Source of the DNA: the human T2T-CHM13v2.0 reference genome, Homo sapiens
Reading direction: 5' to 3'
Length of the DNA stretch: 64,000 bases
NCBI GenBank assembly: GCA_009914755.4
Contig: CP086569.2
Span: 35,808,001 to 35,872,000 of the forward strand
Made by a program: the position numbers and the translations under genes. The notes beneath the pieces are model-generated. The model searched no databases. It was not told the DNA's origin and saw nothing but the letters and a program-made list of their open reading frames with translations. Positions 1 to 48,900 of this stretch are shown in pieces. Numbering within the stretch: the stretch's first letter is position 1; each line of letters opens with the position of its first letter.

Positions 1-3000
1 GACTGGAATGGAATGTTCTCGAAGTGAACGGACTCCAATGGAATGGATTCGAAAGGAATGGAAACTAATGGAATGGAATTAAACGGAAATGAATCAAATA
101 GAATAGAACGGAATTGAATTGAATGGAATCGAATGCAATGGAATCTAATGAAACGGAAAGGAATGGAATGGAATGGGCTGGAATGGAATGGAATCGAAAC
201 GAATGGAATGGAATCGAACTGAAGAGACTGGAATGGAATGCACTGGAATGGAAGGGAATGTAATGGAAGGTTCTCGAAAAAAATGGAATCGAAAGGAATG
301 GAATTGAATGGAACGGAATAGAGTCGAATGGAATTCAATGGAATGGAATGGACTAGAGTGAAATGGAATCGAACCACAAGGAATGGACAGGAATAGAATG
401 GTCTCGAATTGAATGGAATCGTATGGAATGGCATCAAACGGAATGGAATGGACAGCCACGGAATGGAATGGACACCCACGGAATGGAATGCACTCGAATG
501 CAATGGAGTCGACACTAATGGACTGGAATAGAATGGACTCGACTGGTACGGACTCCAATGGAATGGAATCGAATGGAAGGGAATCGAAAGGAATGGACTC
601 GAAGGGAAAAAACTGCAATGGAAAGGTCTCCAATGGAATGGAAATTAATGGAATGGAATGGAATCGAATGAAATGGAGTCAAAAGGAATGGAATCGAATG
701 GCAAGAAATCGAATGTAATGGAATCGCAAGGAATTGATGTGAACGGAACGGAATGGAATGGAATCCAAAGGAATGGAATAGAATGGAATGGAATCGAATG
801 GAAAGGACTCGAATGGAAATCACTCGAATAGAATGCAATTTAATAAAATAGGATCAAATGTAATGGAATGGAATGGAAAGGAATCGAAACGAAAGGAATG
901 GAGACAGATGGAATGGAATGGAACAGAGAGCAATGGTATAGAATGGAATGGAATCATCTGGAATGGAATTGAATGGAATGGAATAATATGAAATGGAATG
1001 GAATGGAATGGAATGCCCTTGAATTAAATGGACTGGAATGCAATGGACTCGAACAGAGTGGAATGGAAAGTGTTGAAATAGAATGGAATGGACTCGTTTG
1101 GAATGGTCTAGTATGCAATGCAATCGACTGGCAGGGAATCAAAAGGAATGTAATCGAATGGATTGGACTGGAATGCAATGGACTCGAATAGATTGGAAAC
1201 GGAAAGCAAAGGAATGGAATGGAATAGTATGGAATGGAATGCAAAGGAATGGAGTGGAATAGACTAGAGTGGAATGGAATGGACTCGAAAGCAATGGACT
1301 GGAATGGAACTTTCTTGAATGGACTGGAATCAAACGGAATGGAATGCAATGCAATCAAATGGCATGGAATAAAATAGAATGAAAGAGAATCAAATGGAAT
1401 TGAATCGAATGGAATCGAATGGATTGGAAAGGAATAGAATGGAATGGAATGGAATTGACTCAAATGGAATGGACTAGAATGGAATGGATTCGAATGGAAG
1501 GCAAAGGAATGGAATCTATTGGAATGGACTGTAATGGAATGGAATGGAAGGGATTGGAATGGACTCGAATGGAATGGACTGCAGTAGAAAGGATTCGAAT
1601 GGAATGAAAAAGAATTGAATGGAATAGAACAGAATGGAATCAAATCGAATGAAATGGAATGGAATAGAAAGGAATGGAATGAAATGGAATGGAAAGGATT
1701 CGAATGGAATGCAATCGAATGGAATGCAATCGAATGGAATGGAATCGAACGGAATGGAATAAAATGGAAGAAAACTGGCAAGAAATGGAATCGAAATGAA
1801 TGGAGTGTTATGGAACGGACTCAAAAGGAATTGAATGTAATAGAATGGAGTGGAGTGGACTCGAATATAATGGACTGGAATGGAATGAAATCACATGGAA
1901 TGGGAACGAATGGAATGGAATGGAAAGGAATGGAATCGAATGCAAAGGAATCGAATGGAAGGGAATGAAATTGAATCAACAGGAATGGAAGGGAGTAGAA
2001 TAGACGGTAATGGAATGGACTCGAATAGAATGGACACGAATGCTCAAATTGAATGGACTCGAATGGAATGGAAACGAAAGGAATGTCATCGAATGGAATT
2101 GAATCGATTGGAATGAAATCACATAGAATGGAGTGGAATCAAATGGAATTGAATCGAAAGGAAAGGAAGCGAATGGACTGAAATGAAATGGAATGGAATT
2201 GAATGGAAATTAATTCAATGGAATAGAATGGAACGAAATTTCACGGAATGGAATCAAACTGAATGGAATCAAATCAATGGAATATAATCAAATGGAATGG
2301 AAAGGAATTGAATGGAGTAGATTGAATTGGATGGGATTGGAATGAAATGTACTGGAAAGGACTCGAATTTCATGAAACGGAATGGAATGAATTAGAACGG
2401 AATGGACTCGAATGGAATGGAATGTCATGGAATGGCATCAAATGGAATGGAATCGAATGCGATGGAATGCTATGGAATGGAATGGAATGCATTGGAATGG
2501 AATGTCCTCTAATGGAATGTATTCGAGTGGAATGGAATCGAATATAATGGAGTCTAATGAAATGGAATTGAAAGGAATGGGACCGAATACAATGGAATAT
2601 ACTGGAATGTAATGTAATGAACTCGAATGTAATTGACTGGAATGGAATGTACATGAATGGAATGTAATCGAATGGAAAGCAATCCAATGGAATAGAATCT
2701 AATGCAATAAAATCGACTCAAATAGAGTAGAATGTAATGGAATGGAGTGCAGTGCAATGGAATGGAATGGAATGGAATGCAATGGAATGGAATGGAATGG
2801 AATGGGATGGAATGGTATGGAATGGATAGTAATGGACTGGAGTGAAATGGACTGGAAAAGAATGGACTCAAATTGAAAGGGCTCGAAAGGAATGGAGTCA
2901 AATGGAATGGTCTGGAATGGAATGAACACGAATGTAATGCAATCCAATAGAATGGAATCGAATGGCATGGAATATAAAGAAATGGAATCGAAGAGAATGG

Positions 3001-3534
3001 AAACAAATGGAATGGAATTGAATGGAATGGAATTGAATGGAATGGGAACGAATGGAGTGAAATTGTATGCAGTAGAAGAGAATAGAATGGAATGCAAGCG
3101 AAAGGAAAGGAATGGATTGGAATGGAATGGAATTCATTGGAATGGAAGGGAATGTAGTGTAATGGACAGGCCTGGAATAAAGTGGAATGCTACGGTCTCG
3201 AATGGAATAAAAATGTATGGAACGGAATGCAATGAAACGGAATCGAATGTCATAGAATGTAATGGAATGCAAAAAAATGGACTCCAAAATCATTGACTGG
3301 AAAGGCTGGGTGTCGAAAGGAATTGACTCCAATGGAATGGAATCGAATGGAATGGAAGTGAATAGAATCGAACTAAATCGAATGGAATGGAATTGATAGG
3401 AACGGAATGGAAAGGAATGCAATGATTTGGCATGGAATGGAATCGAATGGCATCGAATGGAATGGAATGGAATGCAATGGAATGGAATGTATTAGAATGT
3501 AATGAACTTTAATGGAATGTACTCGAATGGATTC
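1..3534 (+). repeat. HSat3 HOR copy 1 (3534 bp), subtype A
   Basis: Starts at landmark gactggaatggaatgttctcgaagtgaacggactcc. Carries two copies of the 15-mer ggaatggacaNccacg (451-480) and the KNCNGK-variant pseudo-ORF at 413-718. Near-identical to copies 9 and 12. Confidence 0.85.
835..866 (+). repeat. AT-rich non-pentameric landmark (gcaatttaataaaataggatcaaatgtaatgg) present once per HOR copy
   Basis: The same 32-mer recurs at about 4384, 7918, 11447, 14959, 18503, 22002, 25550, 29079, 32593, 36141, 39670, 43219, 46753, 50302, 53856, 57360 and 60864. Copies 17/18 read attgcaattt. It is useful as a phase marker. No function is implied. Confidence 0.7.
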
Positions 3535-6500
3535 GACTGGAATGGAATGTTCTCGAAGTGAATGGACTCCAATGGAATGGATTCGAAAGGAATGGAATCT
3601 AATGGAATGGAATTAAATGGAAATGAATCAAATTGAATAGAACGGAATTGAATTGAATGGAATCGAATGCAATGGAATCTAATGAAACGGAAAGGAAAGG
3701 AATGGAATGGATTGGAATGGAATGGGCTGGAATGGAATGGAATCGAAACGAATGGAATGGAATCGAACTGAAGAGACTGGAATGGAATGCACTGGAATGG
3801 AAGGGAATGTAATGGAAGGTTCTCGAAAAAAATGGAATCGAAAGGAATGGAATTGAATGGAACGGAATAGAGTCGAATGGAATTGAATGGAATGGAATGG
3901 ACTAGAGTGAAATGGAATCGAACCACAAGGAATGGACAGGAATAGAATGGTCTCGAATTGAATGGAATCGTATGGAATGGCATCAAACGGAATGGAATGG
4001 ACAGCCACGGAATGGAATGGACACCCACGGAATGGAATGCACTCGAATGCAATGGAGTCGACACTAATGGACTGGAATAGAATGGACTCGACTGGTACGG
4101 ACTCCAATGGAATGGAATCGAATGGAAGGGAATCGAAAGGAATGGACTCGAAGGGAAAAGACTGCAATGGAAAGGTCTCCAATGGAATGGAAATTAATGG
4201 AATGGAATGGAATCGAATGAAATGGAGTCAAAAGGAATGGAATCGAATGGCAAGAAATCGAATGTAATGGAATCGCAAGGAATTGATGTGAACGGAACGG
4301 AATGGAATGGAATCCAAAGGAATGGAATAGAATGGAATGGAATCGAATGGAAAGGACTCGAATGGAAATCACTCGAATAGAATGCAATTTAATAAAATAG
4401 GATCAAATGTAATGGAATGGAATGGAAAGGAATCGAAACGAAAGGAATGGAGACAGATGGAATGGAATGGAACAGAGAGCAATGGTATAGAATGGAATGG
4501 AATCATCTGGAATGGAATTGAATGGAATGGAATAATATGAAATGGAATGGAATGGAATGGAATGCCCTTGAATTAAATGGACTGGAATGCAATGGACTCG
4601 AACAGAGTGGAATGGAATGTGTTGAAATAGAATGGAATGGACTCGTTTGGAATGGTCTAGTATGCAATGCAATCGACTGGCAGGGAATCAAAAGGAATGT
4701 AATCGAATGGATTGGACTGGAATGCAATGGACTCGAATAGATTGGAAGCAGAAAGCAAAGGAATGGAATGGAATAGTATGGAATGGAATGCAAAGGAATG
4801 GAGTGGAATAGACTAGAGTGGAATGGAATGGACTCGAAAGCAATGGACTGGAATGGAACTTTCTTGAATGGACTGGAATCAAACGGAATGGAATGCAATG
4901 CAATCAAATGGCATGGAATAAAATAGAATGAAAGAGAATCAAATGGAATTGAATCGAATGGAATCGAATGGATTGGAAAGGAATAGAATGGAATGGAATG
5001 GAATTGACTCAAATGGAATGGACTAGAATGGAATGGATTCGAATGGAAGGCAAAGGAATGGAATCTATTGGAATGGACTGTAATGGAATGGAATGGAAGG
5101 GATTGGAATGGACTCGAATGGAATGCGCTGCAATAGAAAGGATTCGAATGGAATGAAAAAGAATTGAATGGAATAGAACAGAATGGAATCAAATCGAATG
5201 AAATGGAATGGAATAGAAAGGAATGGAATGAAATGGAATGGAAAGGATTCGAATGGAATGCAATCGAATGGAATGCAATCGAATGGAATGGAATCGAACG
5301 GAATGGAATAAAATGGAAGAAAACTGGCAAGAAATGGAGTCGAAATGAATGGAGTGTTATGGAACGGACTCAAAAGGAATTGAATGTAATAGAATGGAGT
5401 GGAGTGGACTCGAATATAATGGACTGGAGTGGAATGAAATCACATGGAATGGGAACGAATGGAATGGAATGGAAAGGAATGGAATCGAATGGAAAGGAAT
5501 CGAATGGAAGGGAATGAAATTGAATCAACAGGAATGGAAGGGAGTAGAATAGACGGTAATGGAATGGACTCGAATAGAATGGACACGAATGCTCAAATTG
5601 AATGGACTCGAATGGAATGGAAACGAAAGGAATGTCATCGAATGGAATTGAATCTATTGGAATGAAATCACATAGAATGGAGTGGAATCAAATGGAATTG
5701 AATCGAAAGGAAAGGAAGCGAATGGACTGAAATGAAATGGAATGGAATTGAATGGAAATTAATGCAATGGAATAGAATGGAACGAAATTTCACGGAATGG
5801 AATCAAACTGAATGGAATCAAATCAATGGAATATAATCAAATGGAATGGAAAGGAATTGAATGGAGTAGATTGGATTGGATGGGATTGGAATGAAATGTA
5901 CTGGAAAGGACTCGAATTTCATGAAACGGAATGGAATGAATTAGAACGGAATGGACTCGAATGGAATGGAATGTCATGGAATGGCATCAAATGGAATGGA
6001 ATCGAATGCGATGGAATGCTATGGAATGGAATGGAATGCATTGGAATGGAATGTCCTCTAATGGAATGGATTTGAGTGGAATGGAATCGAATATAATGGA
6101 GTCTAATGAAATAGAATTGAAAGGAATGGGACCGAATACAATGGAATATACTGGAATGTAATGTAATGAACTCGAATGTAATTGACTGGAATGGAATGTA
6201 CATGAATGGAATGTAATCGAATGGAAAGCAATCCAATGGAATAGAATCTAATGCAATAAAATCGACTCAAATAGAGTAGAATGTAATGGAATGGAGTGCA
6301 GTGCAATGGAATGGAATGGAATGGAATGCAATGGAATGGAATGGAATGGAATGGGATGGAATGGTATGGAATGGATAGTAATGGACTGGAGTGAAATGGA
6401 CTGGAAAAGAATGGACTCAAATTGAAAGGGCTCGAAAGGAATGGAGTCAAATGGAATGGTCTGGAATGGAATGAACACGAATGTAATGCAATCCAATAGA

Positions 6501-7083
6501 ATGGAATCGAATGGCATGGAATATAAAGAAATGGAATCGAAGAGAATGGAAACAAATGGAATGGAATTGAATGGAATGGAATTGAATGGAATGGGAACGA
6601 ATGGAGTGAAATTGTATGCAGTAGAAGAGAATAGAATGGAATGCAAGCGAAAGGAAAGGAATGGATTGGAATGGAATGGAATTCATTGGAATGGAAGGGA
6701 ATGTAGTGTAATGGACAGGCCTGGAATAAAGTGGAATGCTACGGTCTCGAATGGAATAAAAATGTATGGAACGGAATGCAATGAAACGGAATCGAATGTC
6801 ATAGAATGTAATGGAATGCAAAAAAATGGACTCCAAAATCATTGACTGGAAAGGCTGGGTGTCGAAAGGAATTGACTCCAATGGAATGGAATCGAATGGA
6901 ATGGAAGTGAATAGAATCGAACTAAATCGAATGGAATGGAATTGATAGGAACGGAATGGAAAGGAATGCAATGATTTGGCATGGAATGGAATCGAATGGC
7001 ATCGAATGGAATGGAATGGAATGCAATGGAATGGAATGTATTAGAATGTAATGAACTTTAATGGAATGTACTCGAATGGATTC
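3535..7083 (+). repeat. HSat3 HOR copy 2 (3549 bp), subtype B
   Basis: Same landmark order as copy 1. Has 15 extra bp (aaggaaagg ... ggaatggattggaatgg) near the unit head. Near-identical to copy 13. Confidence 0.85.
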
Positions 7084-10000
7084 GACTGGAATGGAATGTT
7101 CTGGAAGTGAATGGACTCCAATGGAATGGATTCGAAAGGAATGGAAACTAATGGAATGGAATTAAACGGAAATGAATCAAATAGAATAGAACGGAATTGA
7201 ATTGAATGGAATCGAATGCAATGGAATCTAATGAAACGGAAAGGAATGGAATGGAATGGGCTGGAATGGAATGGAATCGAAACGAATGGAATGGAATCGA
7301 ACTGAAGAGACTGGAATGGAATGCACTGGAATGGAAGGGAATGTAATGGAAGGTTCTCGAAAAAAATGGAATCGAAAGGAATGGAATTGAATGGAACGGA
7401 ATAGAGTCGAATGGAATTCAATGGAATGGAATGGACTAGAGTGAAATGGAATCGAACCACAAGGAATGGACAGGAATAGAATGGTCTCGAATTGAATGGA
7501 ATCGTATGGAATGGCATCAAACGGAATGGAATGGACAGCCACGGAATGGAATGGACACCCACGGAATGGAATGCACTCGAATGCAATGGAGTCGACACTA
7601 ATGGACTGGAATAGAATGGACTCGACTGGTACGGACTCCAATGGAATGGAATCGAATGGAAGGGAATCGAACGGAATGGACTCGAAGGGAAAAGACTGCA
7701 ATGGAATGGTCTCGAATGGAATGGAAATTAATGGAATGGAATGGAATCGAATGAAATGGAGTCAAAAGGAATGGAATCGAATGGCAAGAAATCGAATGTA
7801 ATGGAATCGCAAGGAATTGATGTGAACGGAACGGAATGGAATGGAATCCAAAGGAATGGAATAGAATGGAATGGAATCGAATGGAAAGGACTCGAATGGA
7901 AATCACTCGAATAGAATGCAATTTAATAAAATAGGATCAAATGTAATGGAATGGAATGGAAAGGAATCGAAACGAAAGGAATGGAGACAGATGGAATGGA
8001 ATGGAACAGAGAGCAATGGTATAGAATGGAATGGAATCATCTGGAATGGAATTGAATGGAATGGAATAATATGAAATGGAATGGAATGGAATGGAATGCC
8101 CTTGAATTAAATGGACTGGAATGCAATGGACTCGAACAGAGTGGAATGGAAAGTGTTGAAATAGAATGGAATGGACTCGTTTGGAATGGTCTAGTATGCA
8201 ATGCAATCGACTGGCAGGGAATCAAAAGGAATGTAATCGAATGGATTGGACTGGAATGCAATGGACTCGAATAGATTGGAAACGGAAAGCAAAGGAATGG
8301 AATGGAATAGTATGGAATGGAATGCAAAGGAATGGAGTGGAATAGACTAGAGTGGAATGGAATGGACTCGAAAGCAATGGACTGGAATGGAACTTTCTTG
8401 AATGGACTGGAATCAAACGGAATGGAATGCAATGCAATCAAATGGCATGGAATAAAATAGAATGAAAGAGAATCAAATGGAATTGAATCGAATGGAATCG
8501 AATGGATTGGAAAGGAATAGAATGGAATGGAATGGAATTGACTCAAATGGAATGGACTAGAATGGAATGGATTCGAATGGAAGGCAAAGGAATGGAATCT
8601 ATTGGAATGGACTGTAATGGAATGGAATGGAAGGGATTGGAATGGACTCGAATGGAATGGACTGCAGTAGAAAGGATTCGAATGGAATGAAAAAGAATTG
8701 AATGGAATAGAACAGAATGGAATCAAATCGAATGAAATGGAATGGAATAGAAAGGAATGGAATGAAATGGAATGGAAAGGATTCGAATGGAATGCAATCG
8801 AATGGAATGCAATCGAATGGAATGGAATCGAACGGAATGGAATAAAATGGAAGAAAACTGGCAAGAAATGGAATCGAAATGAATGGAGTGTTATGGAACG
8901 GACTCAAAAGGAATTGAATGTAATAGAATGGAGTGGAGTGGACTCGAATATAATGGACTGGAATGGAATGAAATCACATGGAATGGGAACGAATGGAATG
9001 GAATGGAAAGGAATGGAATCGAATGCAAAGGAATCGAATGGAAGGGAATGAAATTGAATCAACAGGAATGGAAGGGAGTAGAATAGACGGTAATGGAATG
9101 GACTCGAATAGAATGGACACGAATGCTCAAATTGAATGGACTCGAATGGAATGGAAACGAAAGGAATGTCATCGAATGGAATTGAATCGATTGGAATGAA
9201 ATCACATAGAATGGAGTGGAATCAAATGGAATTGAATCGAAAGGAAAGGAAGCGAATGGACTGAAATGAAATGGAATGGAATTGAATGGAAAGTAATGCA
9301 ATGGAATAGAATGGAACGAAATTTCACGGAATGGAATCAAACTGAATGGAATCAAATCAATGGAATATAATCAAATGGAATGGAAAGGAATTGAATGGAG
9401 TAGATTGGATTGGATGGGATTGGAATGAAATGTACTGGAAAGGACTCGAAATTCATGAAACGGAATGGAATGAACTGGAACGGAATGGACTCGAATGGAA
9501 TGGAATGTCATGGAATGGCATCAAATGGAATGGAATCGAATGCGATGGAATGCTATGGAATGGAATGGAATGCATTGGAATGGAATGTCCTCTAATGGAA
9601 TGTATTCGAGTGGAATGGAATCGAATATAATGGAGTCTAATGAAATGGAATTGAAAGGAATGGGACCGAATACAATGGAATAAACTGGTATGTAATGTAA
9701 TGAACTCGAATGTAATTGACTGGAATGGAATGTACATGAATGGAATGTAATCGAATGGAAAGCAATCCAATGGAATAGAATCTAATGCAATAAAATCGAC
9801 TCAAATAGAGTAGAATGTAATGGAATGGAGTGCAGTGCAATGGAATGGAATGGAATGCAACGGAATGGAATGGAATGGAATGGAATGGGATGGAATGGTA
9901 TGGAATGGATAGTAATGGACTGGAGTGAAATGGACTGGAAAAGAATGGACTCAAATTGAAAGGGCTCGAAAGGAATGGAGTCAAATGGAATGGTCTGGAA

Positions 10001-10617
10001 TGGAATGAACACGAATGTAATGCAATCCAATAGAATGGAATCGAATGGCATGGAATATAAAGAAATGGAATCGAAGAGAATGGAAACAAATGGAATGGAA
10101 TTGAATGGAATGGAATTGAATGGAATGGGAACGAATGGAGTGAAATTGTATGCAGTAGAAGAGAATAGAATGGAATGCAAGCGAAAGGAAAGGAATGGAT
10201 TGGAATGGAATGGAATTCATTGGAATGGAAGGGAATGTAGTGTAATGGACAGGCCTGGAATAAAGTGGAATGCTACGGTCTCGAATGGAATAAAAATGTA
10301 TGGAATGGAATGCAATGAAACGGAATCGAATGTCATAGAATGTAATGGAATGCAAAAAAATGGACTCCAAAATCATTGACTGGAAAGGCTGGGTGTCGAA
10401 AGGAATTGACTCCAATGGAATGGAATCGAATGGAATGGAAGTGAATAGAATCGAACTAAATCGAATGGAATGGAATTGATAGGAACGGAATGGAAAGGAA
10501 TGCAATGATTTGGCATGGAATGGAATCGAAAGGCATCGAATGGAATGGAATGGAATGCAATGGAATGGAATGTATTAGAATGTAATGAACATTAATGGAA
10601 AGTACTCGAATGGATTC
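7084..10617 (+). repeat. HSat3 HOR copy 3 (3534 bp), subtype C
   Basis: Distinguishing variant ...gactgcaatggaatggtctcg... (pseudo-ORF 7496-7801 reads DCNGMVSNG). The first ~1.8 kb is near-identical to copy 14. The tail (about 8.9-10.6 kb) is more diverged from copy 14. Confidence 0.85.
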
Positions 10618-13600: not shown

Positions 13601-14130
13601 CAAATGGAATGGAATTGAATGGAATGGAATTGAATGGAATGGGAACGAATGGAGTGAAATTGTATGCAGTAGAAGAGAATAGAATGGAATGCAAGCGAAA
13701 GGAAAGGAATGGATTGGAATGGAATGGAATTCATTGGAATGGAAGGGAATGTAGTGTAATGGACAGGCCTGTAATAAAGTGGAATGCTACGGTCTCGAAT
13801 GGAATAAAAATGTATGGAATGGAATGCAATGAAACGGAATCGAATGTCATAGAAGTAATGGAATGCAAAAAAATGGACTCCAAAATCATTGACTGGAAAG
13901 GCTGGGTGTCGAAAGGAATTTACTCCAATGGAATGGAATCGAATGGAATGGAAGTGAATAGAATCGAACTAAATCGAATGGAATGGAATTGATAGGAACG
14001 GAATGGAAAGGAATGCAATGATTTCGCATGGAATGGAATCGAATGGCATCGAATGGAATGGAATGGAATGCAATGGAATGGAATGTATTAAAATGTAATG
14101 AACTTTAATGGAATGTACTCGAATGGATTC
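10618..14130 (+). repeat. HSat3 HOR copy 4 (3513 bp), subtype D
   Basis: Single copy of ggaatggacggccacg instead of two. Private tandem 15-mer duplication ggaagggaatcgaac x2 at 11172-11201. Confidence 0.85.
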
Positions 14131-17100: not shown

Positions 17101-17673
17101 ATGGCATGGAATGTAAAGAAATGGAATCGAAGAGAATGGAAACAAATGGAATGGAATTGAATGGAATGGAATTGAATGGAATGGGAACGAATGGAGTGAA
17201 ATTGTATGCAGTAGAAGAGAATAGAATGGAATGCAAGCGAAAGGAAAGGAATGGATTGGAATGGAATGGAATTCATTGGAATGGAAGGGAATGTAGTGTA
17301 ATGGACAGGCCTGGAATAAAGTGGAATGCTACGGTCTCGAATGGAATAAAAATGTATGGAATGGAATGCAATGAAACGGAATCGAATGTCATAGAATGTA
17401 ATGGAATGCAAAAAAATGGAATCCAAAATCATTGACTGGAAAGGCTGGGTGTCGAAAGGAATTGACTCCAATGGAATGGAATCGAATGGCATGGAAGTGA
17501 ATAGAATGGAACTAAATCGAATGGAATGGAATTGATAGGAACGGAATGGAAAGGAATGCAATGATTTGGCATGGAATGGAATCGAATGGCATCGAATGGA
17601 ATGGAATGGAATGCAATGGAATGGAATGTATTAGAATGTAATGAACTTTAATGGAATGTACTCGAATGGATTC
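14131..17673 (+). repeat. HSat3 HOR copy 5 (3543 bp), subtype D
   Basis: Same landmarks. MESNHKEW-type read-through pseudo-ORF at 14507-14842. Confidence 0.85.
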
Positions 17674-34700: not shown

Positions 34701-35291
34701 CCAATAGAATGGAATCGAATGGCATGGAATATAAAGAAATGGAATCGAAGAGAATGGAAACAAATGGAATGGAATTGAATGGAATGGAATTGAATGGAAT
34801 GGGAACGAATGGAGTGAAATTGTATGCAGTAGAAGAGAATAGAATGGAATGCAAGCGAAAGGAAAGGAATGGATTGGAATGGAATGGAATTCATTGGAAT
34901 GGAAGGGAATGTAGTGTAATGGACAGGCCTGGAATAAAGTGGAATGCTACGGTCTCGAATGGAATAAAAATGTATGGAACGGAATGCAATGAAACGGAAT
35001 CGAATGTCATAGAATGTAATGGAATGCAAAAAAATGGACTCCAAAATCATTGACTGGAAAGGCTGGGTGTCGAAAGGAATTGACTCCAATGGAATGGAAT
35101 CGAATGGAATGGAAGTGAATAGAATCGAACTAAATCGAATGGAATGGAATTGATAGGAACGGAATGGAAAGGAATGCAATGATTTGGCATGGAATGGAAT
35201 CGAATGGCATCGAATGGAATGGAATGGAATGCAATGGAATGGAATGTATTAGAATGTAATGAACTTTAATGGAATGTACTCGAATGGATTC
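31779..35291 (+). repeat. HSat3 HOR copy 10 (3513 bp), subtype D
   Basis: Twin of copy 7. Confidence 0.85.
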
Positions 35292-38200: not shown

Positions 38201-38835
38201 AAATGGAATGGTCTGGAATGGAATGAACACGAATGTAATGCAATCCAATAGAATGGAATCGAATGGCATGGAATATAAAGAAATGGAATCGAAGAGAATG
38301 GAAACAAATGGAATGGAATTGAATGGAATGGAATTGAATGGAATGAGAACGAATGGAGTGAAATTGTATGCAGTAGAAGAGAATAGAATGGAATGCAAGC
38401 GAAAGGAAAGGAATGGATTGGAATGGAATGGAATTCATTGGAATGGAAGGGAATGTAGTGTAATGGACAGGCCTGGAATAAAGTGGAATGCTACGGTCTC
38501 GAATGGAATAAAAATGTATGGAATGGAATGCAATGAAACGGAATCGAATGTCATAGAATGTAATGGAATGCAAAAAAATGGAATCCAAAATCATTGACTG
38601 GAAAGGCTGGGTGTCGAAAGGAATTGACTCCAATGGAATGGAATCGAATGGAATGGAAGTGAATAGAATCGAACTAAATCGAATGGAATGGAATTGATAG
38701 GAACGGAATGGAAAGGAATGCAATGATTTGGCATGGAATGGAATCGAATGGCATCGAATGGAATGGAATGGAATGCAATGGAATGGAATGTATTAGAATG
38801 TAATGAACTTTAATGGAATGTACTCGAATGGATTC
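35292..38835 (+). repeat. HSat3 HOR copy 11 (3544 bp), subtype B
   Basis: Twin of copy 8. Confidence 0.85.
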
Positions 38836-41800
38836 GACTGGAATGGAATGTTCTCGAAGTGAACGGACTCCAATGGAATGGATTCGAAAGGAATGGAAAC
38901 TAATGGAATGGAATTAAACGGAAATGAATCAAATAGAATAGAACGGAATTGAATTGAATGGAATCGAATGCAATGGAATCTAATGAAACGGAAAGGAATG
39001 GAATGGAATGGGCTGGAATGGAATGGAATCGAAACGAATGGAATGGAATCGAACTGAAGAGACTGGAATGGAATGCACTGGAATGGAAGGGAATGTAATG
39101 GAAGGTTCTCGAAAAAAATGGAATCGAAAGGAATGGAATTGAATGGAACGGAATAGAGTCGAATGGAATTCAATGGAATGGAATGGACTAGAGTGAAATG
39201 GAATCGAACCACAAGGAATGGACAGGAATAGAATGGTCTCGAATTGAATGGAATCGTATGGAATGGCATCAAACGGAATGGAATGGACAGCCACGGAATG
39301 GAATGGACACCCACGGAATGGAATGCACTCGAATGCAATGGAGTCGACACTAATGGACTGGAATAGAATGGACTCGACTGGTACGGACTCCAATGGAATG
39401 GAATCGAATGGAAGGGAATCGAAAGGAATGGACTCGAAGGGAAAAAACTGCAATGGAAAGGTCTCCAATGGAATGGAAATTAATGGAATGGAATGGAATC
39501 GAATGAAATGGAGTCAAAAGGAATGGAATCGAATGGCAAGAAATCGAATGTAATGGAATCGCAAGGAATTGATGTGAACGGAACGGAATGGAATGGAATC
39601 CAAAGGAATGGAATAGAATGGAATGGAATCGAATGGAAAGGACTCGAATGGAAATCACTCGAATAGAATGCAATTTAATAAAATAGGATCAAATGTAATG
39701 GAATGGAATGGAAAGGAATCGAAACGAAAGGAATGGAGACAGATGGAATGGAATGGAACAGAGAGCAATGGTATAGAATGGAATGGAATCATCTGGAATG
39801 GAATTGAATGGAATGGAATAATATGAAATGGAATGGAATGGAATGGAATGCCCTTGAATTAAATGGACTGGAATGCAATGGACTCGAACAGAGTGGAATG
39901 GAAAGTGTTGAAATAGAATGGAATGGACTCGTTTGGAATGGTCTAGTATGCAATGCAATCGACTGGCAGGGAATCAAAAGGAATGTAATCGAATGGATTG
40001 GACTGGAATGCAATGGACTCGAATAGATTGGAAATGGAAAGCAAAGGAATGGAATGGAATAGTATGGAATGGAATGCAAAGGAATGGAGTGGAATAGACT
40101 AGAGTGGAATGGAATGGACTCGAAAGCAATGGACTGGAATGGAACTTTCTTGAATGGACTGGAATCAAACGGAATGGAATGCAATGCAATCAAATGGCAT
40201 GGAATAAAATAGAATGAAAGAGAATCAAATGGAATTGAATCGAATGGAATCGAATGGATTGGAAAGGAATAGAATGGAATGGAATGGAATTGACTCAAAT
40301 GGAATGGACTAGAATGGAATGGATTCGAATGGAAGGCAAAGGAATGGAATCTATTGGAATGGACTGTAATGGAATGGAATGGAAGGGATTGGAATGGACT
40401 CGAATGGAATGGACTGCAGTAGAAAGGATTCGAATGGAATGAAAAAGAATTGAATGGAATAGAACAGAATGGAATCAAATCGAATGAAATGGAATGGAAT
40501 AGAAAGGAATGGAATGAAATGGAATGGAAAGGATTCGAATGGAATGCAATCGAATGGAATGCAATCGAATGGAATGGAATCGAACGGAATGGAATAAAAT
40601 GGAAGAAAACTGGCAAGAAATGGAATCGAAATGAATGGAGTGTTATGGAACGGACTCAAAAGGAATTGAATGTAATAGAATGGAGTGGAGTGGACTCGAA
40701 TATAATGGACTGGAATGGAATGAAATCACATGGAATGGGAACGAATGGAATGGAATGGAAAGGAATGGAATCGAATGCAAAGGAATCGAATGGAAGGGAA
40801 CGAAATTGAATCAACAGGAATGGAAGGGAGTAGAATAGACGGTAATGGAATGGACTCGAATAGAATGGACACGAATGCTCAAATTGAATGGACTCGAATG
40901 GAATGGAAACGAAAGGAATGTCATCGAATGGAATTGAATCGATTGGAATGAAATCACATAGAATGGAGTGGAATCAAATGGAATTGAATCGAAAGGAAAG
41001 GAAGCGAATGGACTGAAATGAAATGGAATGGAATTGAATGGAAATTAATTCAATGGAATAGAATGGAACGAAATTTCACGGAATGGAATCAAACTGAATG
41101 GAATCAAATCAATGGAATATAATCAAATGGAATGGAAAGGAATTGAATGGAGTAGATTGAATTGGATGGGATTGGAATGAAATGTACTGGAAAGGACTCG
41201 AATTTCATGAAACGGAATGGAATGAATTAGAACGGAATGGACTCGAATGGAATGGAATGTCATGGAATGGCATCAAATGGAATGGAATCGAATGCGATGG
41301 AATGCTATGGAATGGAATGGAATGCATTGGAATGGAATGTCCTCTAATGGAATGTATTCGAGTGGAATGGAATCGAATATAATGGAGTCTAATGAAATGG
41401 AATTGAAAGGAATGGGACCGAATACAATGGAATATACTGGAATGTAATGTAATGAACTCGAATGTAATTGACTGGAATGGAATGTACATGAATGGAATGT
41501 AATCGAATGGAAAGCAATCCAATGGAATAGAATCTAATGCAATAAAATCGACTCAAATAGAGTAGAATGTAATGGAATGGAGTGCAGTGCAATGGAATGG
41601 AATGGAATGGAATGCAATGGAATGGAATGGAATGGAATGGGATGGAATGGTATGGAATGGATAGTAATGGACTGGAGTGAAATGGACTGGAAAAGAATGG
41701 ACTCAAATTGAAAGGGCTCGAAAGGAATGGAGTCAAATGGAATGGTCTGGAATGGAATGAACACGAATGTAATGCAATCCAATAGAATGGAATCGAATGG

Positions 41801-42369
41801 CATGGAATATAAAGAAATGGAATCGAAGAGAATGGAAACAAATGGAATGGAATTGAATGGAATGGAATTGAATGGAATGGGAACGAATGGAGTGAAATTG
41901 TATGCAGTAGAAGAGAATAGAATGGAATGCAAGCGAAAGGAAAGGAATGGATTGGAATGGAATGGAATTCATTGGAATGGAAGGGAATGTAGTGTAATGG
42001 ACAGGCCTGGAATAAAGTGGAATGCTACGGTCTCGAATGGAATAAAAATGTATGGAACGGAATGCAATGAAACGGAATCGAATGTCATAGAATGTAATGG
42101 AATGCAAAAAAATGGACTCCAAAATCATTGACTGGAAAGGCTGGGTGTCGAAAGGAATTGACTCCAATGGAATGGAATCGAATGGAATGGAAGTGAATAG
42201 AATCGAACTAAATCGAATGGAATGGAATTGATAGGAACGGAATGGAAAGGAATGCAATGATTTGGCATGGAATGGAATCGAATGGCATCGAATGGAATGG
42301 AATGGAATGCAATGGAATGGAATGTATTAGAATGTAATGAACTTTAATGGAATGTACTCGAATGGATTC
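38836..42369 (+). repeat. HSat3 HOR copy 12 (3534 bp), subtype A
   Basis: Near-identical to copy 1 at offset 38,835. Resembles copy 9. Confidence 0.85.
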
Positions 42370-45300
42370 GACTGGAATGGAATGTTCTCGAAGTGAATGG
42401 ACTCCAATGGAATGGATTCGAAAGGAATGGAATCTAATGGAATGGAATTAAATGGAAATGAATCAAATTGAATAGAACGGAATTGAATTGAATGGAATCG
42501 AATGCAATGGAATCTAATGAAACGGAAAGGAAAGGAATGGAATGGATTGGAATGGAATGGGCTGGAATGGAATGGAATCGAAACGAATGGAATGGAATCG
42601 AACTGAAGAGACTGGAATGGAATGCACTGGAATGGAAGGGAATGTAATGGAAGGTTCTCGAAAAAAATGGAATCGAAAGGAATGGAATTGAATGGAACGG
42701 AATAGAGTCGAATGGAATTGAATGGAATGGAATGGACTAGAGTGAAATGGAATCGAACCACAAGGAATGGACAGGAATAGAATGGTCTCGAATTGAATGG
42801 AATCGTATGGAATGGCATCAAACGGAATGGAATGGACAGCCACGGAATGGAATGGACACCCACGGAATGGAATGCACTCGAATGCAATGGAGTCGACACT
42901 AATGGACTGGAATAGAATGGACTCGACTGGTACGGACTCCAATGGAATGGAATCGAATGGAAGGGAATCGAAAGGAATGGACTCGAAGGGAAAAGACTGC
43001 AATGGAAAGGTCTCGAATGGAATGGAAATTAATGGAATGGAATGGAATCGAATGAAATGGAGTCAAAAGGAATGGAATCGAATGGCAAGAAATCGAATGT
43101 AATGGAATCGCAAGGAATTGATGTGAACGGAACGGAATGGAATGGAATCCAAAGGAATGGAATAGAATGGAATGGAATCGAATGGAAAGGACTCGAATGG
43201 AAATCACTCGAATAGAATGCAATTTAATAAAATAGGATCAAATGTAATGGAATGGAATGGAAAGGAATCGAAACGAAAGGAATGGAGACAGATGGAATGG
43301 AATGGAACAGAGAGCAATGGTATAGAATGGAATGGAATCATCTGGAATGGAATTGAATGGAATGGAATAATATGAAATGGAATGGAATGGAATGGAATGC
43401 CCTTGAATTAAATGGACTGGAATGCAATGGACTCGAACAGAGTGGAATGGAATGTGTTGAAATAGAATGGAATGGACTCGTTTGGAATGGTCTAGTATGC
43501 AATGCAATCGACTGGCAGGGAATCAAAAGGAATGTAATCGAATGGATTGGACTGGAATGCAATGGACTCGAATAGATTGGAAGCAGAAAGCAAAGGAATG
43601 GAATGGAATAGTATGGAATGGAATGCAAAGGAATGGAGTGGAATAGACTAGAGTGGAATGGAATGGACTCGAAAGCAATGGACTGGAATGGAACTTTCTT
43701 GAATGGACTGGAATCAAACGGAATGGAATGCAATGCAATCAAATGGCATGGAATAAAATAGAATGAAAGAGAATCAAATGGAATTGAATCGAATGGAATC
43801 GAATGGATTGGAAAGGAATAGAATGGAATGGAATGGAATTGACTCAAATGGAATGGACTAGAATGGAATGGATTCGAATGGAAGGCAAAGGAATGGAATC
43901 TATTGGAATGGACTGTAATGGAATGGAATGGAAGGGATTGGAATGGACTCGAATGGAATGCGCTGCAATAGAAAGGATTCGAATGGAATGAAAAAGAATT
44001 GAATGGAATAGAACAGAATGGAATCAAATCGAATGAAATGGAATGGAATAGAAAGGAATGGAATGAAATGGAATGGAAAGGATTCGAATGGAATGCAATC
44101 GAATGGAATGCAATCGAATGGAATGGAATCGAACGGAATGGAATAAAATGGAAGAAAACTGGCAAGAAATGGAGTCGAAATGAATGGAGTGTTATGGAAC
44201 GGACTCAAAAGGAATTGAATGTAATAGAATGGAGTGGAGTGGACTCGAATATAATGGACTGGAGTGGAATGAAATCACATGGAATGGGAACGAATGGAAT
44301 GGAATGGAAAGGAATGGAATCGAATGGAAAGGAATCGAATGGAAGGGAATGAAATTGAATCAACAGGAATGGAAGGGAGTAGAATAGACGGTAATGGAAT
44401 GGACTCGAATAGAATGGACACGAATGCTCAAATTGAATGGACTCGAATGGAATGGAAACGAAAGGAATGTCATCGAATGGAATTGAATCTATTGGAATGA
44501 AATCACATAGAATGGAGTGGAATCAAATGGAATTGAATCGAAAGGAAAGGAAGCGAATGGACTGAAATGAAATGGAATGGAATTGAATGGAAATTAATGC
44601 AATGGAATAGAATGGAACGAAATTTCACGGAATGGAATCAAACTGAATGGAATCAAATCAATGGAATATAATCAAATGGAATGGAAAGGAATTGAATGGA
44701 GTAGATTGGATTGGATGGGATTGGAATGAAATGTACTGGAAAGGACTCGAATTTCATGAAACGGAATGGAATGAATTAGAACGGAATGGACTCGAATGGA
44801 ATGGAATGTCATGGAATGGCATCAAATGGAATGGAATCGAATGCGATGGAATGCTATGGAATGGAATGGAATGCATTGGAATGGAATGTCCTCTAATGGA
44901 ATGGATTTGAGTGGAATGGAATCGAATATAATGGAGTCTAATGAAATAGAATTGAAAGGAATGGGACCGAATACAATGGAATATACTGGAATGTAATGTA
45001 ATGAACTCGAATGTAATTGACTGGAATGGAATGTACATGAATGGAATGTAATCGAATGGAAAGCAATCCAATGGAATAGAATCTAATGCAATAAAATCGA
45101 CTCAAATAGAGTAGAATGTAATGGAATGGAGTGCAGTGCAATGGAATGGAATGGAATGGAATGCAATGGAATGGAATGGAATGGAATGGGATGGAATGGT
45201 ATGGAATGGATAGTAATGGACTGGAGTGAAATGGACTGGAAAAGAATGGACTCAAATTGAAAGGGCTCGAAAGGAATGGAGTCAAATGGAATGGTCTGGA

Positions 45301-45918
45301 ATGGAATGAACACGAATGTAATGCAATCCAATAGAATGGAATCGAATGGCATGGAATATAAAGAAATGGAATCGAAGAGAATGGAAACAAATGGAATGGA
45401 ATTGAATGGAATGGAATTGAATGGAATGGGAACGAATGGAGTGAAATTGTATGCAGTAGAAGAGAATAGAATGGAATGCAAGCGAAAGGAAAGGAATGGA
45501 TTGGAATGGAATGGAATTCATTGGAATGGAAGGGAATGTAGTGTAATGGACAGGCCTGGAATAAAGTGGAATGCTACGGTCTCGAATGGAATAAAAATGT
45601 ATGGAACGGAATGCAATGAAACGGAATCGAATGTCATAGAATGTAATGGAATGCAAAAAAATGGACTCCAAAATCATTGACTGGAAAGGCTGGGTGTCGA
45701 AAGGAATTGACTCCAATGGAATGGAATCGAATGGAATGGAAGTGAATAGAATCGAACTAAATCGAATGGAATGGAATTGATAGGAACGGAATGGAAAGGA
45801 ATGCAATGATTTGGCATGGAATGGAATCGAATGGCATCGAATGGAATGGAATGGAATGCAATGGAATGGAATGTATTAGAATGTAATGAACTTTAATGGA
45901 ATGTACTCGAATGGATTC
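42370..45918 (+). repeat. HSat3 HOR copy 13 (3549 bp), subtype B
   Basis: Near-identical to copy 2 at offset 38,835. Confidence 0.85.
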
Positions 45919-48900
45919 GACTGGAATGGAATGTTCTGGAAGTGAATGGACTCCAATGGAATGGATTCGAAAGGAATGGAAACTAATGGAATGGAATTAA
46001 ACGGAAATGAATCAAATAGAATAGAACGGAATTGAATTGAATGGAATCGAATGCAATGGAATCTAATGAAACGGAAAGGAATGGAATGGAATGGGCTGGA
46101 ATGGAATGGAATCGAAACGAATGGAATGGAATCGAACTGAAGAGACTGGAATGGAATGCACTGGAATGGAAGGGAATGTAATGGAAGGTTCTCGAAAAAA
46201 ATGGAATCGAAAGGAATGGAATTGAATGGAACGGAATAGAGTCGAATGGAATTCAATGGAATGGAATGGACTAGAGTGAAATGGAATCGAACCACAAGGA
46301 ATGGACAGGAATAGAATGGTCTCGAATTGAATGGAATCGTATGGAATGGCATCAAACGGAATGGAATGGACAGCCACGGAATGGAATGGACACCCACGGA
46401 ATGGAATGCACTCGAATGCAATGGAGTCGACACTAATGGACTGGAATAGAATGGACTCGACTGGTACGGACTCCAATGGAATGGAATCGAATGGAAGGGA
46501 ATCGAACGGAATGGACTCGAAGGGAAAAGACTGCAATGGAATGGTCTCGAATGGAATGGAAATTAATGGAATGGAATGGAATCGAATGAAATGGAGTCAA
46601 AAGGAATGGAATCGAATGGCAAGAAATCGAATGTAATGGAATCGCAAGGAATTGATGTGAACGGAACGGAATGGAATGGAATCCAAAGGAATGGAATAGA
46701 ATGGAATGGAATCGAATGGAAAGGACTCGAATGGAAATCACTCGAATAGAATGCAATTTAATAAAATAGGATCAAATGTAATGGAATGGAATGGAAAGGA
46801 ATCGAAACGAAAGGAATGGAGACAGATGGAATGGAATGGAACAGAGAGCAATGGTATAGAATGGAATGGAATCATCTGGAATGGAATTGAATGGAATGGA
46901 ATAATATGAAATGGAATGGAATGGAATGGAATGCCCTTGAATTAAATGGACTGGAATGCAATGGACTCGAACAGAGTGGAATGGAAAGTGTTGAAATAGA
47001 ATGGAATGGACTCGTTTGGAATGGTCTAGTATGCAATGCAATCGACTGGCAGGGAATCAAAAGGAATGTAATCGAATGGATTGGACTGGAATGCAATGGA
47101 CTCGAATAGATTGGAAACGGAAAGCAAAGGAATGGAATGGAATAGTATGGAATGGAATGCAAAGGAATGGAGTGGAATAGACTAGAGTGGAATGGAATGG
47201 ACTCGAAAGCAATGGACTGGAATGGAACTTTCTTGAATGGACTGGAATCAAACGGAATGGAATGCAATGCAATCAAATGGCATGGAATAAAATAGAATGA
47301 AAGAGAATCAAATGGAATTGAATCGAATGGAATCGAATGGATTGGAAAGGAATAGAATGGAATGGAATGGAATTGACTCAAATGGAATGGACTAGAATGG
47401 AATGGATTCGAATGGAAGGCAAAGGAATGGAATCTATTGGAATGGACTGTAATGGAATGGAATGGAAGGGATTGGAATGGACTCGAATGGAATGGACTGC
47501 AGTAGAAAGGATTCGAATGGAATGAAAAAGAATTGAATGGAATAGAACAGAATGGAATCAAATCGAATGAAATGGAATGGAATAGAAAGGAATGGAATGA
47601 AATGGAATGGAAAGGATTCGAATGGAATGCAATCGAATGGAATGCAATCGAATGGAATGGAATCGAACGGAATGGAATAAAATGGAAGAAAACTGGCAAG
47701 AAATGGAATCGAAATGAATGGAGTGTTATGGAACGGACTCAAAAGGAATTGAATGTAATAGAATGGAGTGGAGTGGACTCGAATATAATGGACTGGAATG
47801 GAATGAAATCACATGGAATGGGAACGAATGGAATGGAATGGAAAGGAATGGAATCGAATGCAAAGGAATCGAAAGGAAGGGAATGAAATTGAATCAACAG
47901 GAATGGAAGGGAGTAGAATAGACGGTAATGGAATGGACTCGAAGAGAATGGACACGAATGCTCAAATTGAATGGACTCGAATGGAATGGCAACGAAAGGA
48001 ATGTCATCGAATGGAATTGAATCGATTGGAATGAAATCACATAGAATGGAGTGGAATCAAATGGAATTGAATCGAAAGGAAAGGAAGCGAATGGACTGAA
48101 ATGAAATGGAATGGAATTGAATGGAAATTAATTCAATGGCATAGAATGGAACGAAATTTCACGGAATGGAATCAAACTGAATGGAATCAAATCAATGGAA
48201 TATAATCAAATGGAATGGAAAGGAATTGAATGGAGTAGATTGAATTGGATGGGATTGGAATGAAATGTACTGGAAAGGACTCGAATTTCATGAAACGGAA
48301 TGGAATGAATTAGAACGGAATGGACTCGAATGGAATGGAATGTCATGGAATGGCATCAAATGGAATGGGATCGAATGCGATGGAATGCTATGGAATGGAA
48401 TGGAATGCATTGGAATGGAATGTCCTCTAATGGAATGTATTCGAGTGGAATGGAATCGAATATAATGGAGTCTAATGAAATGGAATTGAAAGGAATGGGA
48501 CCGAATACAATGGAATATACTGGAATGTAATGTAATGAACTCGAATGTAATTGACTGGAATGGAATGTACATGAATGGAATGTAATCGAATGGAAAGCAA
48601 TCCAATGGAATAGAATCTAATGCAATAAAATCGACTCAAATAGAGTAGAATGTAATGGAATGGAGTGCAGTGCAATGGAATGGAATGGAATGGAATGCAA
48701 TGGAATGGAATGGAATGGAATGGGATGGAATGGTATGGAATGGATAGTAATGGACTGGAGTGAAATGGACTGGAAAAGAATGGACTCAAATTGAAAGGGC
48801 TCGAAAGGAATGGAGTCAAATGGAATGGTCTGGAATGGAATGAACATGAATGTAATGCAATCCAATAGAATGGAATCGAATGGCATGGAATATAAAGAAA

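What the first reader, a model, noticed from the sequence alone, without database searches (positions are those of the whole stretch)
1..47735. Second long-range near-identical block at offset 38,835 bp (11 units), plus a 28,244-bp-offset match confined to the first ~2.2 kb
Units 1-3 and 12-14 share lengths (3534/3549/3534) and nearly all translations through about 8.9 kb. The pseudo-ORF at 3679-4182 vs 42514-43002 is the one exception, differing only at its 5' end (METFPLQ vs MQ). Unit 1 also matches unit 9 at offset 28,244, but only up to about position 2200. There unit 9 switches to the variant shared with unit 6, ...ggactcgaaattcatg..., in place of ...gaatttcatg.... Unit 14's tail (48.2-49.4 kb) matches unit 1's tail at offset 45,918 rather than unit 3's. 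Individual copies are therefore mosaics of donor units. This points to frequent intra-array conversion, not simple block duplication.
Basis: seen in the sequence. Interest (0 to 1): 0.55.

Follow-up and report, generated by a model that had tools for sequence, protein, structure and literature searches.

The report
Human Y satellite DYZ1 block duplications
The window is an ordinary stretch of the human Y-chromosome satellite DYZ1, in which two recent multi-unit duplications made by unequal exchange explain the long-range near-identical blocks and the "mosaic" repeat copies; this behaviour is already published for this satellite.

Summary
The window holds 18 tandem ~3.5-kb units of a GGAAT-derived satellite. 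Eight published DYZ1 primers map once per unit in the right order, with the expected amplicon sizes. GC content and CpG density also fit human Y DYZ1/HSat3A6.

- **38,835 offset:** positions 1-9038 differ from their copy at only 3 bases, against about 100 expected.
- **28,244 offset:** positions 1-2209 differ at 2 bases.
- **10,591 offset:** a third block, 19775-30453, differs at 6 bases.

Unit 9 has the head of unit 12 and the tail of unit 6, with one switch inside an 88-bp interval. Units 10 and 11 copy units 7 and 8. The identity run equals the period plus 88 bp. That is the junction expected from a single three-unit unequal exchange, not from conversion. Units 17 and 15 follow the same head-from-the-right, tail-from-the-left rule. 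Unit 3 is probably the junction of the 11-unit duplication, whose left part lies outside the window.

Short gene conversion is a minor contributor. Three of seven post-duplication differences carry alleles found in other units, and one exact 2.1-kb patch is unresolved.

All of this matches published accounts of Yq12. Interest is low.

The parts
1..64000 (+). Tandem array of DYZ1 (HSat3A6-type) units, GGAAT-rich on the + strand. It holds 18 full units plus a 443-bp partial unit.
   Evidence: TRF finds pentamer-multiple periods across the whole window. Unit boundaries come from the MAFFT alignment. Published DYZ1 primers hit once per unit.
1..9038 (.). Left copy of the long-range block (unit 1, unit 2 and the head of unit 3). 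Its left end is cut by the window edge.
   Evidence: 3 mismatches against 38836-47873. Exact runs 1-1199, 1201-1965, 1967-4179 and 4181-9038.
38836..47873 (.). Right copy of the long-range block (unit 12, unit 13 and the head of unit 14).
   Evidence: Offset 38,835.
7715..9038 (.). Interval in unit 3 that must contain the right-hand end of the 38,835-bp-offset identity. Under the tandem-duplication model this is the inferred duplication junction.
   Evidence: Units 3 and 14 are identical over alignment columns 0-1984. The last marker specific to this pair is column 660 (window 7714), and the first difference is at 9039.
19775..30365 (.). First copy of a three-unit (10,591-bp) tandem duplication: unit 6 tail, unit 7, unit 8 and unit 9 head.
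   Evidence: 6 mismatches against the +10,591 copy over 19775-30453. Units 7 and 10 differ at 2 sites, and units 8 and 11 at none.
30366..40956 (.). Second copy of the three-unit tandem duplication: unit 9 tail, unit 10, unit 11 and unit 12 head.
30366..30453 (.). 88-bp switch interval inside hybrid unit 9 (28245-31778). To its left unit 9 matches units 12 and 1; to its right it matches unit 6.
   Evidence: The last difference between units 6 and 9 is at 19774 (equivalent to 30365). The first tail difference between units 9 and 12 is at 30454. The two-parent model leaves 2 differences, against 17 for the best single parent.
56536..60039 (.). Unit 17, an older hybrid with a head like unit 18 (+1 unit) and a tail like unit 16 (-1 unit).
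49453..53006 (.). Unit 15, a weaker hybrid with a head like unit 16 (+1 unit) and its last ~600 bp like unit 14 (-1 unit).
34230..36374 (.). Exact 2,145-bp patch identical to 41308-43452. It spans the unit 10 tail / unit 11 head boundary and matches the unit 12 tail / unit 13 head boundary. It is flanked by about 1% divergence on the left and about 0.6% on the right.
4180..4180 (.). Candidate short-tract conversion site. Unit 2 has C where its twin, unit 13, has G. The C allele is also present in units 1, 9, 12, 15 and 16. This site also creates the TTG pseudo-start.
28580..28580 (.). Candidate short-tract conversion site. Unit 9 has G; units 1 and 12 have C. The G allele is shared with units 2, 8, 11 and 13.
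29486..29486 (.). Candidate short-tract conversion site. Unit 9 has G; units 1 and 12 have C. The G allele is shared with units 4-6 and 15-18.
3033..3186 (.). Example of the 154-bp interval, present once per unit, bounded by two convergent primer sequences recalled from memory as a DYZ1 sexing pair. It contains the HaeIII site at 3169.
3679..4182 (-). It is not a gene. The pentamer repeat lacks stop codons in some frames, and the ORF was called with bacterial start codons.

Best explanation
The window is part of a human Y-chromosome DYZ1 (HSat3A6) satellite array. Its long-range near-identical blocks are recent multi-unit duplications made by unequal exchange between misaligned copies of the array. 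Sister-chromatid exchange is the likely route, though an equivalent homology-driven template switch would give the same sequence. The partners cross over inside a unit, so each event leaves one hybrid junction unit. That unit takes its head from the unit one period to the right and its tail from the unit one period to the left.

**Shown here.**
- One three-unit (10,591-bp) tandem duplication has unit 9 as its junction.
- A block of at least 9 kb is repeated 11 units (38,835 bp) away.
- The 28,244-bp match of unit 1 to unit 9 follows directly from these two events, because 38,835 - 10,591 = 28,244.

**Inferred.**
- The 38,835-bp block is the right-hand end of an 11-unit tandem duplication whose junction lies in unit 3 and whose left part lies outside the window. 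It would have been 8 units if it predates the three-unit event.
- Both events date to roughly 10^2-10^3 generations ago.

Short-tract gene conversion adds isolated single-site changes on top of this.
For: **Identity as DYZ1.**
- Pentamer-derived repeat with 3,489-3,554-bp units.
- Eight DYZ1 primers from PMC3402420 Tables S3/S7 map once per unit in the right order and orientation. Four short in-silico amplicons reproduce the published sizes in all or nearly all units (275, 242, 773, 329 bp); the remaining six fall within tens of bp or include the published size.
- GC is 38-40% and CpG density is 1 per 34 bp. Published values are 38% and 1 per 35 bp.
- One HaeIII site in most units.

**Duplication mechanism.**
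- Identity at offset 10,591 runs from 19775 to 30453, which is 10,679 bp = period + 88 bp, with 6 mismatches.
- Units 7/10 and 8/11 differ at 2 and 0 sites.
- Unit 9 modelled as unit 1/12 head plus unit 6 tail leaves 2 differences, against 17 for the best single parent.
- The head-from-+P, tail-from--P rule is also met by units 17 and 15.
- Painting shows one switch per recent mosaic (two in the older unit 17) and no A-B-A patches.
- An exact 2000-mer dot-plot leaves only offsets 10,591, 38,835 and 7,078.

**Literature.**
- Pedigree studies attribute 17-29% of Yq12 de novo SNVs to interlocus gene conversion. Here the share is 3 of 7.
Against: - The left end of the 38,835-bp block is cut by the window. 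Its tandem nature, and unit 3's role as junction, are therefore inferred; neither unit 3's tail nor unit 14's tail has a near-identical partner inside the window.
- Sequence alone cannot formally separate a 10.6-kb tandem duplication from a 10.6-kb conversion tract that overwrote three pre-existing units.
- The exact 2,145-bp patch, flanked by divergence on both sides, is not explained by a single unequal exchange.
- The units are 15-65 bp shorter than the modal 3,569-bp DYZ1 fragment. They are only 95-97.5% identical to DYZ1 contaminant contigs in public assemblies, so this is a variant sub-array.
- Y-chromosomal location could not be checked against a human assembly.
Confidence: 0.8

Rival explanations
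1. The mosaics arise mainly from frequent intra-array gene conversion. Tracts copied from donor units overwrite parts of recipient units without changing copy number.
For: - Three of seven post-duplication differences carry alleles present at the homologous site of other units. The maximum possible tracts are under 460 bp, and the chance probability is about 3e-4.
- An exact 2,145-bp patch is flanked by divergence on both sides.
- Pedigree studies report interlocus gene conversion in Yq12.
Against: - Where mappable, they lie at the ends of collinear multi-unit blocks.
- Unit 9's two parents sit symmetrically at +3 and -3 units, and the two following units are also copies.
- A conversion tract would have to be 10.6 kb long and lie exactly tandem to its donor.
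- No unit shows an internal multi-marker patch returning to the same donor.
Confidence: 0.1
2. The near-identical long-range blocks are an assembly artefact, that is, a false duplication or mis-join within a satellite array.
For: Satellite arrays are error-prone in assembly. No reads were available here to validate the joins.
Against: - The copies are not identical. They carry 3 and 6 differences, including private substitutions in units 7 and 12.
- The junction structure follows the biological rule for unequal exchange.
- The same kind of structure is reported in validated T2T assemblies.
Confidence: 0.05
3. The 38,835-bp-offset block is a non-tandem copy of a block of about 9 kb or more. This could be a long conversion, or the remnant of a larger duplication later trimmed by deletions, rather than the end of an intact 11-unit tandem duplication.
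For: - Only 9 kb of the identity is visible.
- Neither unit 3's tail nor unit 14's tail has a near-identical partner in the window.
- Other short exact patches at various offsets show that the array's history is layered.
Against: - The testable events in the same window (the 10,591-bp event and units 17 and 15) all fit simple tandem unequal exchange.
- The block runs off the window edge, which the tandem model predicts.
Confidence: 0.15

Closest known systems
Human DYZ1 / HSat3A6 satellite of Yq12 (Rhie et al. T2T-Y, 10.1101/2022.12.01.518724; Hallast et al., 10.1101/2022.12.01.518658)
   Same: - Derived from the CATTC/GGAAT pentamer.
- Nested tandem unit of about 3.5-3.6 kb.
- GC about 38% and CpG about 1 per 35 bp.
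- A HaeIII site in each unit.
- Published DYZ1 primers map in the right order.
- Units more than 97% identical to each other.
   Different: - Units here are 3,489-3,554 bp, against a modal HaeIII fragment of 3,569 bp.
- Three units carry a second HaeIII site.
- No DYZ2 block lies in the window.
- Chromosomal position was not verified.
Iterative tandem duplications by unequal exchange in Yq12 (T2T-Y Extended Data Fig. 8)
   Same: Near-identical blocks appear at multi-unit offsets in an exact-k-mer dot-plot, and the duplications are nested.
   Different: The scale differs: 10.6 kb and 38.8 kb here, against events up to 5 Mb spanning whole DYZ1/DYZ2 blocks in the paper. Here the junction of one event is resolved to 88 bp.
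Interlocus gene conversion in Yq12 seen in pedigrees (PMC12240836; PMC13252187)
   Same: Isolated single-base changes reproduce an allele found at non-orthologous copies. The share here is 3 of 7, against 29% and 17% of de novo SNVs in the pedigree studies.
   Different: Here the events are inferred from diverged duplicate copies rather than observed in a transmission. The donor cannot be identified.

Membership tests
DYZ1 / HSat3A6 | Built from diverged copies of the pentamer GGAAT/CATTC | tested here: met
   TRF consensus units of 10, 15 and 20 bp made of GAATG repeats span 26-63997. Strong G>C and A>T strand skew throughout.
DYZ1 / HSat3A6 | Higher-order tandem unit of about 3.5-3.6 kb | tested here: met
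   18 units of 3,489-3,554 bp. These are slightly shorter than the 3,569-bp modal fragment reported.
DYZ1 / HSat3A6 | Published DYZ1-specific primers present once per unit, in the published order and spacing | tested here: met
   Eight primers from PMC3402420 Table S3 each hit about 18 times within 2 mismatches; primers 6 and 8 need a stricter threshold (1 mismatch or fewer) to be confined to once per unit. The four short amplicons of 275, 242, 773 and 329 bp reproduce Table S7 in all or nearly all units. The other six combinations fall within tens of bp of the published size or include it. Two further primers recalled from memory give a 154-bp product once per unit; no citation for them was found in the library.
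DYZ1 / HSat3A6 | HaeIII (GGCC) site defining the unit-length fragment | tested here: met
   One GGCC in each of 15 units and two in units 4, 7 and 10.
DYZ1 / HSat3A6 | Base composition of about 38% GC and about 1 CpG per 35 bp | tested here: met
   GC 0.375-0.399. CpG 1 per 33.9 bp.
DYZ1 / HSat3A6 | Located in human Yq12, in blocks alternating with DYZ2/HSat1B | not testable with these tools
   There is no DYZ2 in the window and no human genome collection is available. The only external matches are six DYZ1-like contaminant contigs in 'bacterial' assemblies, at 95-97.5% identity.
Tandem duplication by unequal exchange | Identity at the period offset spans one period plus the interval where the two parents were already identical | tested here: met
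   For the 10,591-bp event, 19775-30453 is 10,679 bp = 10,591 + 88. This cannot be tested for the 38,835-bp event because its left end lies outside the window.
Tandem duplication by unequal exchange | A single hybrid junction unit whose head matches the unit at +P and whose tail matches the unit at -P | tested here: met
   Unit 9 has a head like unit 12 (+3) and a tail like unit 6 (-3). Unit 17 follows the rule at +1/-1, and so does unit 15. For unit 3 only the head (unit 14, +11) is visible.
Tandem duplication by unequal exchange | Copy-number gain relative to haplotypes that lack the event | not testable with these tools
   This needs other Y assemblies.
Gene conversion | A patch matching a non-allelic donor, flanked on both sides by the recipient's own sequence, with no length change | tested here: inconclusive
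   - Not met for the large switches in units 9, 3 and 14, which have single switches and no A-B-A patches.
- Compatible for the three single-site changes at 4180, 28580 and 29486.
- Compatible for the 2,145-bp exact patch. Recurrent mutation or two separate exchanges cannot be excluded for either.

The most novel reading that the evidence does not exclude
The two dated duplicate pairs in this window could serve as a natural experiment on Yq12 sequence change. The share of post-duplication differences that look like short-tract conversion is 3 of 7, all transversions to alleles present in other units. This is higher than the 17-29% seen in pedigrees. If it held across many such duplicate pairs, it would mean that conversion, rather than point mutation, dominates the long-term divergence of DYZ1 copies. 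The exact 2.1-kb patch would then be a long-tract event of the same process.
Probability: 0.15. Interest if true: 0.3.

Novelty: already known. Interest (0 to 1): 0.1.

Why it matters
It matters little beyond bookkeeping. The window is a textbook example of how a Y-chromosome satellite array grows by unequal exchange, with one junction resolved to 88 bp. The practical lesson for the scan concerns tandem arrays: mosaic units at the ends of collinear multi-unit blocks are duplication junctions and should not be read as evidence of conversion. The ORFs and 'translations' in this window have no biological meaning.

Tried and rejected
- **Three-unit super-repeat.** I tested for a general A-B-C periodicity of about 10.6 kb across the array. 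Mean divergence by unit lag shows only a slight dip at lag 3 (1.12%, the lowest of all lags), and it disappears once the recent copies (units 9-11) are removed. Rejected.
- **Exchange hotspot.** I looked for clustering of switch points. The intervals are scattered across the unit: alignment columns 2151-2239, 661-1985, 1048-1106, 2999-3075 and 2785-2865, with patch edges at 2517, 1098 and 3352. No clustering was found.
- **Primer citation.** Literature searches for the two primers recalled from memory found nothing, and a search on '154 bp' led to irrelevant papers. I used published primers from PMC3402420 instead.
- **Public genome scan.** The scan gave only six short contaminant contigs at 95-97.5% identity. 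They are too diverged, and probably too collapsed, to polarise the variants.
- **Order of the two duplications.** I tried to order them from the heads of units 1, 9 and 12. These have 0, 2 and 2 private differences, giving a star-like tree with no resolution.
- **Coding reading of the ORFs.** Rejected. Satellite pentamers lack stop codons in several frames, and the 5' difference is a single base that creates a TTG.
Full report
**What the window is**

Tandem Repeats Finder describes the whole window (26-63997) as diverged GAATG pentamers. GC is 38-40%, with strong G>C and A>T skew. A unique internal marker recurs 18 times, 3,489-3,554 bp apart.

Several tests place it in DYZ1:
- Two primers I recalled from memory as the classic DYZ1 sexing pair match once per unit and converge on each other. 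They bound a 154-bp product that contains the HaeIII site. I could not find a citation for them.
- I therefore took eight DYZ1 primers and ten amplicon sizes from PMC3402420, Tables S3 and S7. All eight map once per unit in the expected order and orientation. The four short amplicons of 275, 242, 773 and 329 bp are reproduced in all or nearly all units, and the other six combinations fall within tens of bp of the published size or include it.
- CpG density is 1 per 34 bp. The published DYZ1 values are 1 per 35 bp and 38% GC.

The window is therefore human Y DYZ1 (HSat3A6-type), in a sub-array whose units are 15-65 bp shorter than the modal 3,569-bp fragment. Y-chromosomal location could not be tested directly.

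**Checking the observation**

- **Offset histogram.** A 40-mer offset histogram is dominated by 10,591 and 38,835.
- **Offset 38,835.** Positions 1-9038 have three mismatches (1200, 1966, 4180). Mismatches then run at about 1.5%.
- **Offset 28,244.** Positions 1-2209 have two mismatches, followed by 22 more up to 3518.
- **Offset 10,591.** Positions 19775-30453 have six mismatches.
- **Chance.** Median divergence among the 153 unit pairs is 1.13%. The blocks would then be expected to carry about 102, 25 and 121 mismatches (P from 5e-9 down to 1e-43).
- **Dot-plot.** An exact 2000-mer dot-plot keeps only offsets 10,591, 38,835 and 7,078.
- **Pseudo-ORF.** The difference is the single base at 4180, which makes TTG or TTC on the minus strand.
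- **Unit 14.** Its tail is nearer to unit 1's tail (10 differences) than to unit 3's (23). However, unit 14 is uniformly about 0.45% from unit 1 and shows no switch.

**Anatomy of the mosaics**

*Unit 9.* The multiple alignment and variant matrix show that units 7 and 10 differ at 2 sites and units 8 and 11 at none. Unit 9 is best explained as the head of unit 1/12 plus the tail of unit 6. That model leaves 2 differences, against 17 for the best single parent. In window coordinates the last unit 6/unit 9 difference is at 19774 (equivalent to 30365), and the first tail difference between units 9 and 12 is at 30454. The switch therefore lies in 30366-30453.

This is what one unequal exchange between unit 6 and the present unit 12 predicts. 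The ancestral order 5-6-7-8-12-13 becomes 5-6-7-8-[12 head + 6 tail]-7'-8'-12-13. The model also predicts that identity at the period offset spans the period plus the interval where the parents were already identical. Observed: 10,679 = 10,591 + 88.

Unit 9's head copies unit 12's head, unit 12 is the twin of unit 1, and 38,835 - 10,591 = 28,244.

*Units 3 and 14.* The two are identical over alignment columns 0-1984 and then differ at 23 sites. The end of the 38,835 block therefore lies between 7715 (just after the last marker specific to this pair) and 9038.

Under a tandem model, unit 3 is the junction of an 11-unit duplication. It would have been an 8-unit duplication if the three-unit event came later. 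Unit 14 would be the intact right-hand parent, and unit 3's tail would copy a unit that lies outside the window. This part is inference, because the left end of the block is cut by the window edge.

*Older hybrids.* Two older hybrids follow the same rule of head from +P and tail from -P:
- Unit 17 has a head like unit 18 and a tail like unit 16.
- Unit 15 has a head like unit 16 and its last ~600 bp like unit 14.

A copying-model painting with a switch penalty gives one switch per recent mosaic and two in the older unit 17. It finds no patch that returns to the same donor in any unit.

**Is there gene conversion at all?**

Seven differences separate the recent twins inside the blocks. Four are private, novel substitutions, two in unit 7 and two in unit 12. 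The other three carry an allele already present at the homologous column of other units:
- 4180 in unit 2,
- 28580 in unit 9,
- 29486 in unit 9.

A random substitution would reproduce an existing allele with probability of about 0.02, so three of seven has P of about 3e-4. The largest possible tracts are under 460 bp. Hypermutable sites remain an alternative explanation.

There is also an exact 2,145-bp patch, 34230-36374 = 41308-43452. It spans the boundary between units 10 and 11 and the boundary between units 12 and 13. It is flanked by about 1% divergence on one side and about 0.6% on the other. Either a long conversion tract or two separate exchanges could produce it. I could not decide between them.

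**Comparison with what is known**

- The T2T-Y paper describes DYZ1 as nested tandem repeats of about 3.6 kb derived from CATTC. [quoted passage not shown]
- Hallast et al. describe homogenisation by expansion and contraction within DYZ1 arrays.
- Pedigree work gives a Yq12 SNV rate of 3.86e-7 per bp per generation. It attributes 29% or 17% of de novo SNVs to interlocus gene conversion.

With that rate, the 10,591-bp and 38,835-bp events date to about 730 generations (95% CI 270-1,580) and about 430 generations (95% CI 90-1,260). This is inference and assumes the pedigree rate applies.

Everything in the window therefore fits published behaviour of this satellite. It is one more instance, with one junction resolved to 88 bp.

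**Related sequence elsewhere**

A scan of 185,579 bacterial and archaeal genomes for a DYZ1 23-mer found six short contigs (1.0-3.6 kb). They sit in assemblies labelled Actinomadura, Streptomyces, Streptosporangium, Senimuribacter and a Polyangiaceae MAG. They align to the window at 95-97.5% identity. This matches the human-Y satellite contamination of microbial databases reported by the T2T-Y authors.

**Verdict**

Conversion is a minor contributor, in short tracts.
- Novelty: already known.
- Interest: low.

Noticed in passing
L001-L006 (BMRF01000076.1, CALPCJ010000043.1, NZ_JBFAJD010000109.1, BNBB01000077.1, BMTN01000077.1, CAYVXY010000078.1): Six short contigs in assemblies labelled as bacteria (Actinomadura, Senimuribacter, two Streptomyces, Streptosporangium and a Polyangiaceae MAG) consist of DYZ1-like sequence, 95-97.5% identical to the window. 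They are almost certainly human male DNA contamination, as the T2T-Y paper reported for HSat3 and HSat1B.
   Followed up: partly
window 11071, 21641, 32232: Units 4, 7 and 10 carry a second HaeIII (GGCC) site about 454 bp into the unit. On digestion they would give fragments of about 0.8 kb and 2.7 kb instead of the classic unit-length fragment.
   Followed up: no
window 60040-63557 (unit 18); also units 4-6 (10618-21187): Unit 18 is the most diverged unit, at 1.9-2.7% from all others with 38 private variants. Units 4, 5 and 6 are also outliers, with 28, 20 and 15 private variants. Divergence is therefore uneven along the array and rises toward the right end of the window.
   Followed up: no
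window 34230-36374 and 41308-43452 (also 23639-25783 and 2473-4617): An exact 2,145-bp patch straddling a unit boundary is shared by four unit pairs (1|2, 7|8, 10|11, 12|13). The flanks on both sides are about 0.6-1% diverged. It is either a long conversion tract or the product of two exchanges; this is unresolved.
   Followed up: partly
whole window: All units are 15-65 bp shorter than the modal DYZ1 HaeIII fragment (3,569 bp) reported for assembled Y chromosomes (the 3,564-bp size of the classic clone is recalled from memory, not checked here). The long in-silico amplicons are correspondingly 10-60 bp short. The window therefore comes from a length-variant DYZ1 sub-array.
   Followed up: partly
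window 10366-11190 and 31527-32351 (offset 21,161): A further exact patch of about 825 bp spans the boundary between units 3 and 4 and the boundary between units 9 and 10. Unit 4's head (alignment columns 0-1043) is nearly identical to the heads of units 7 and 10, while its tail is about 2% diverged. This is another old hybrid.
   Followed up: partly
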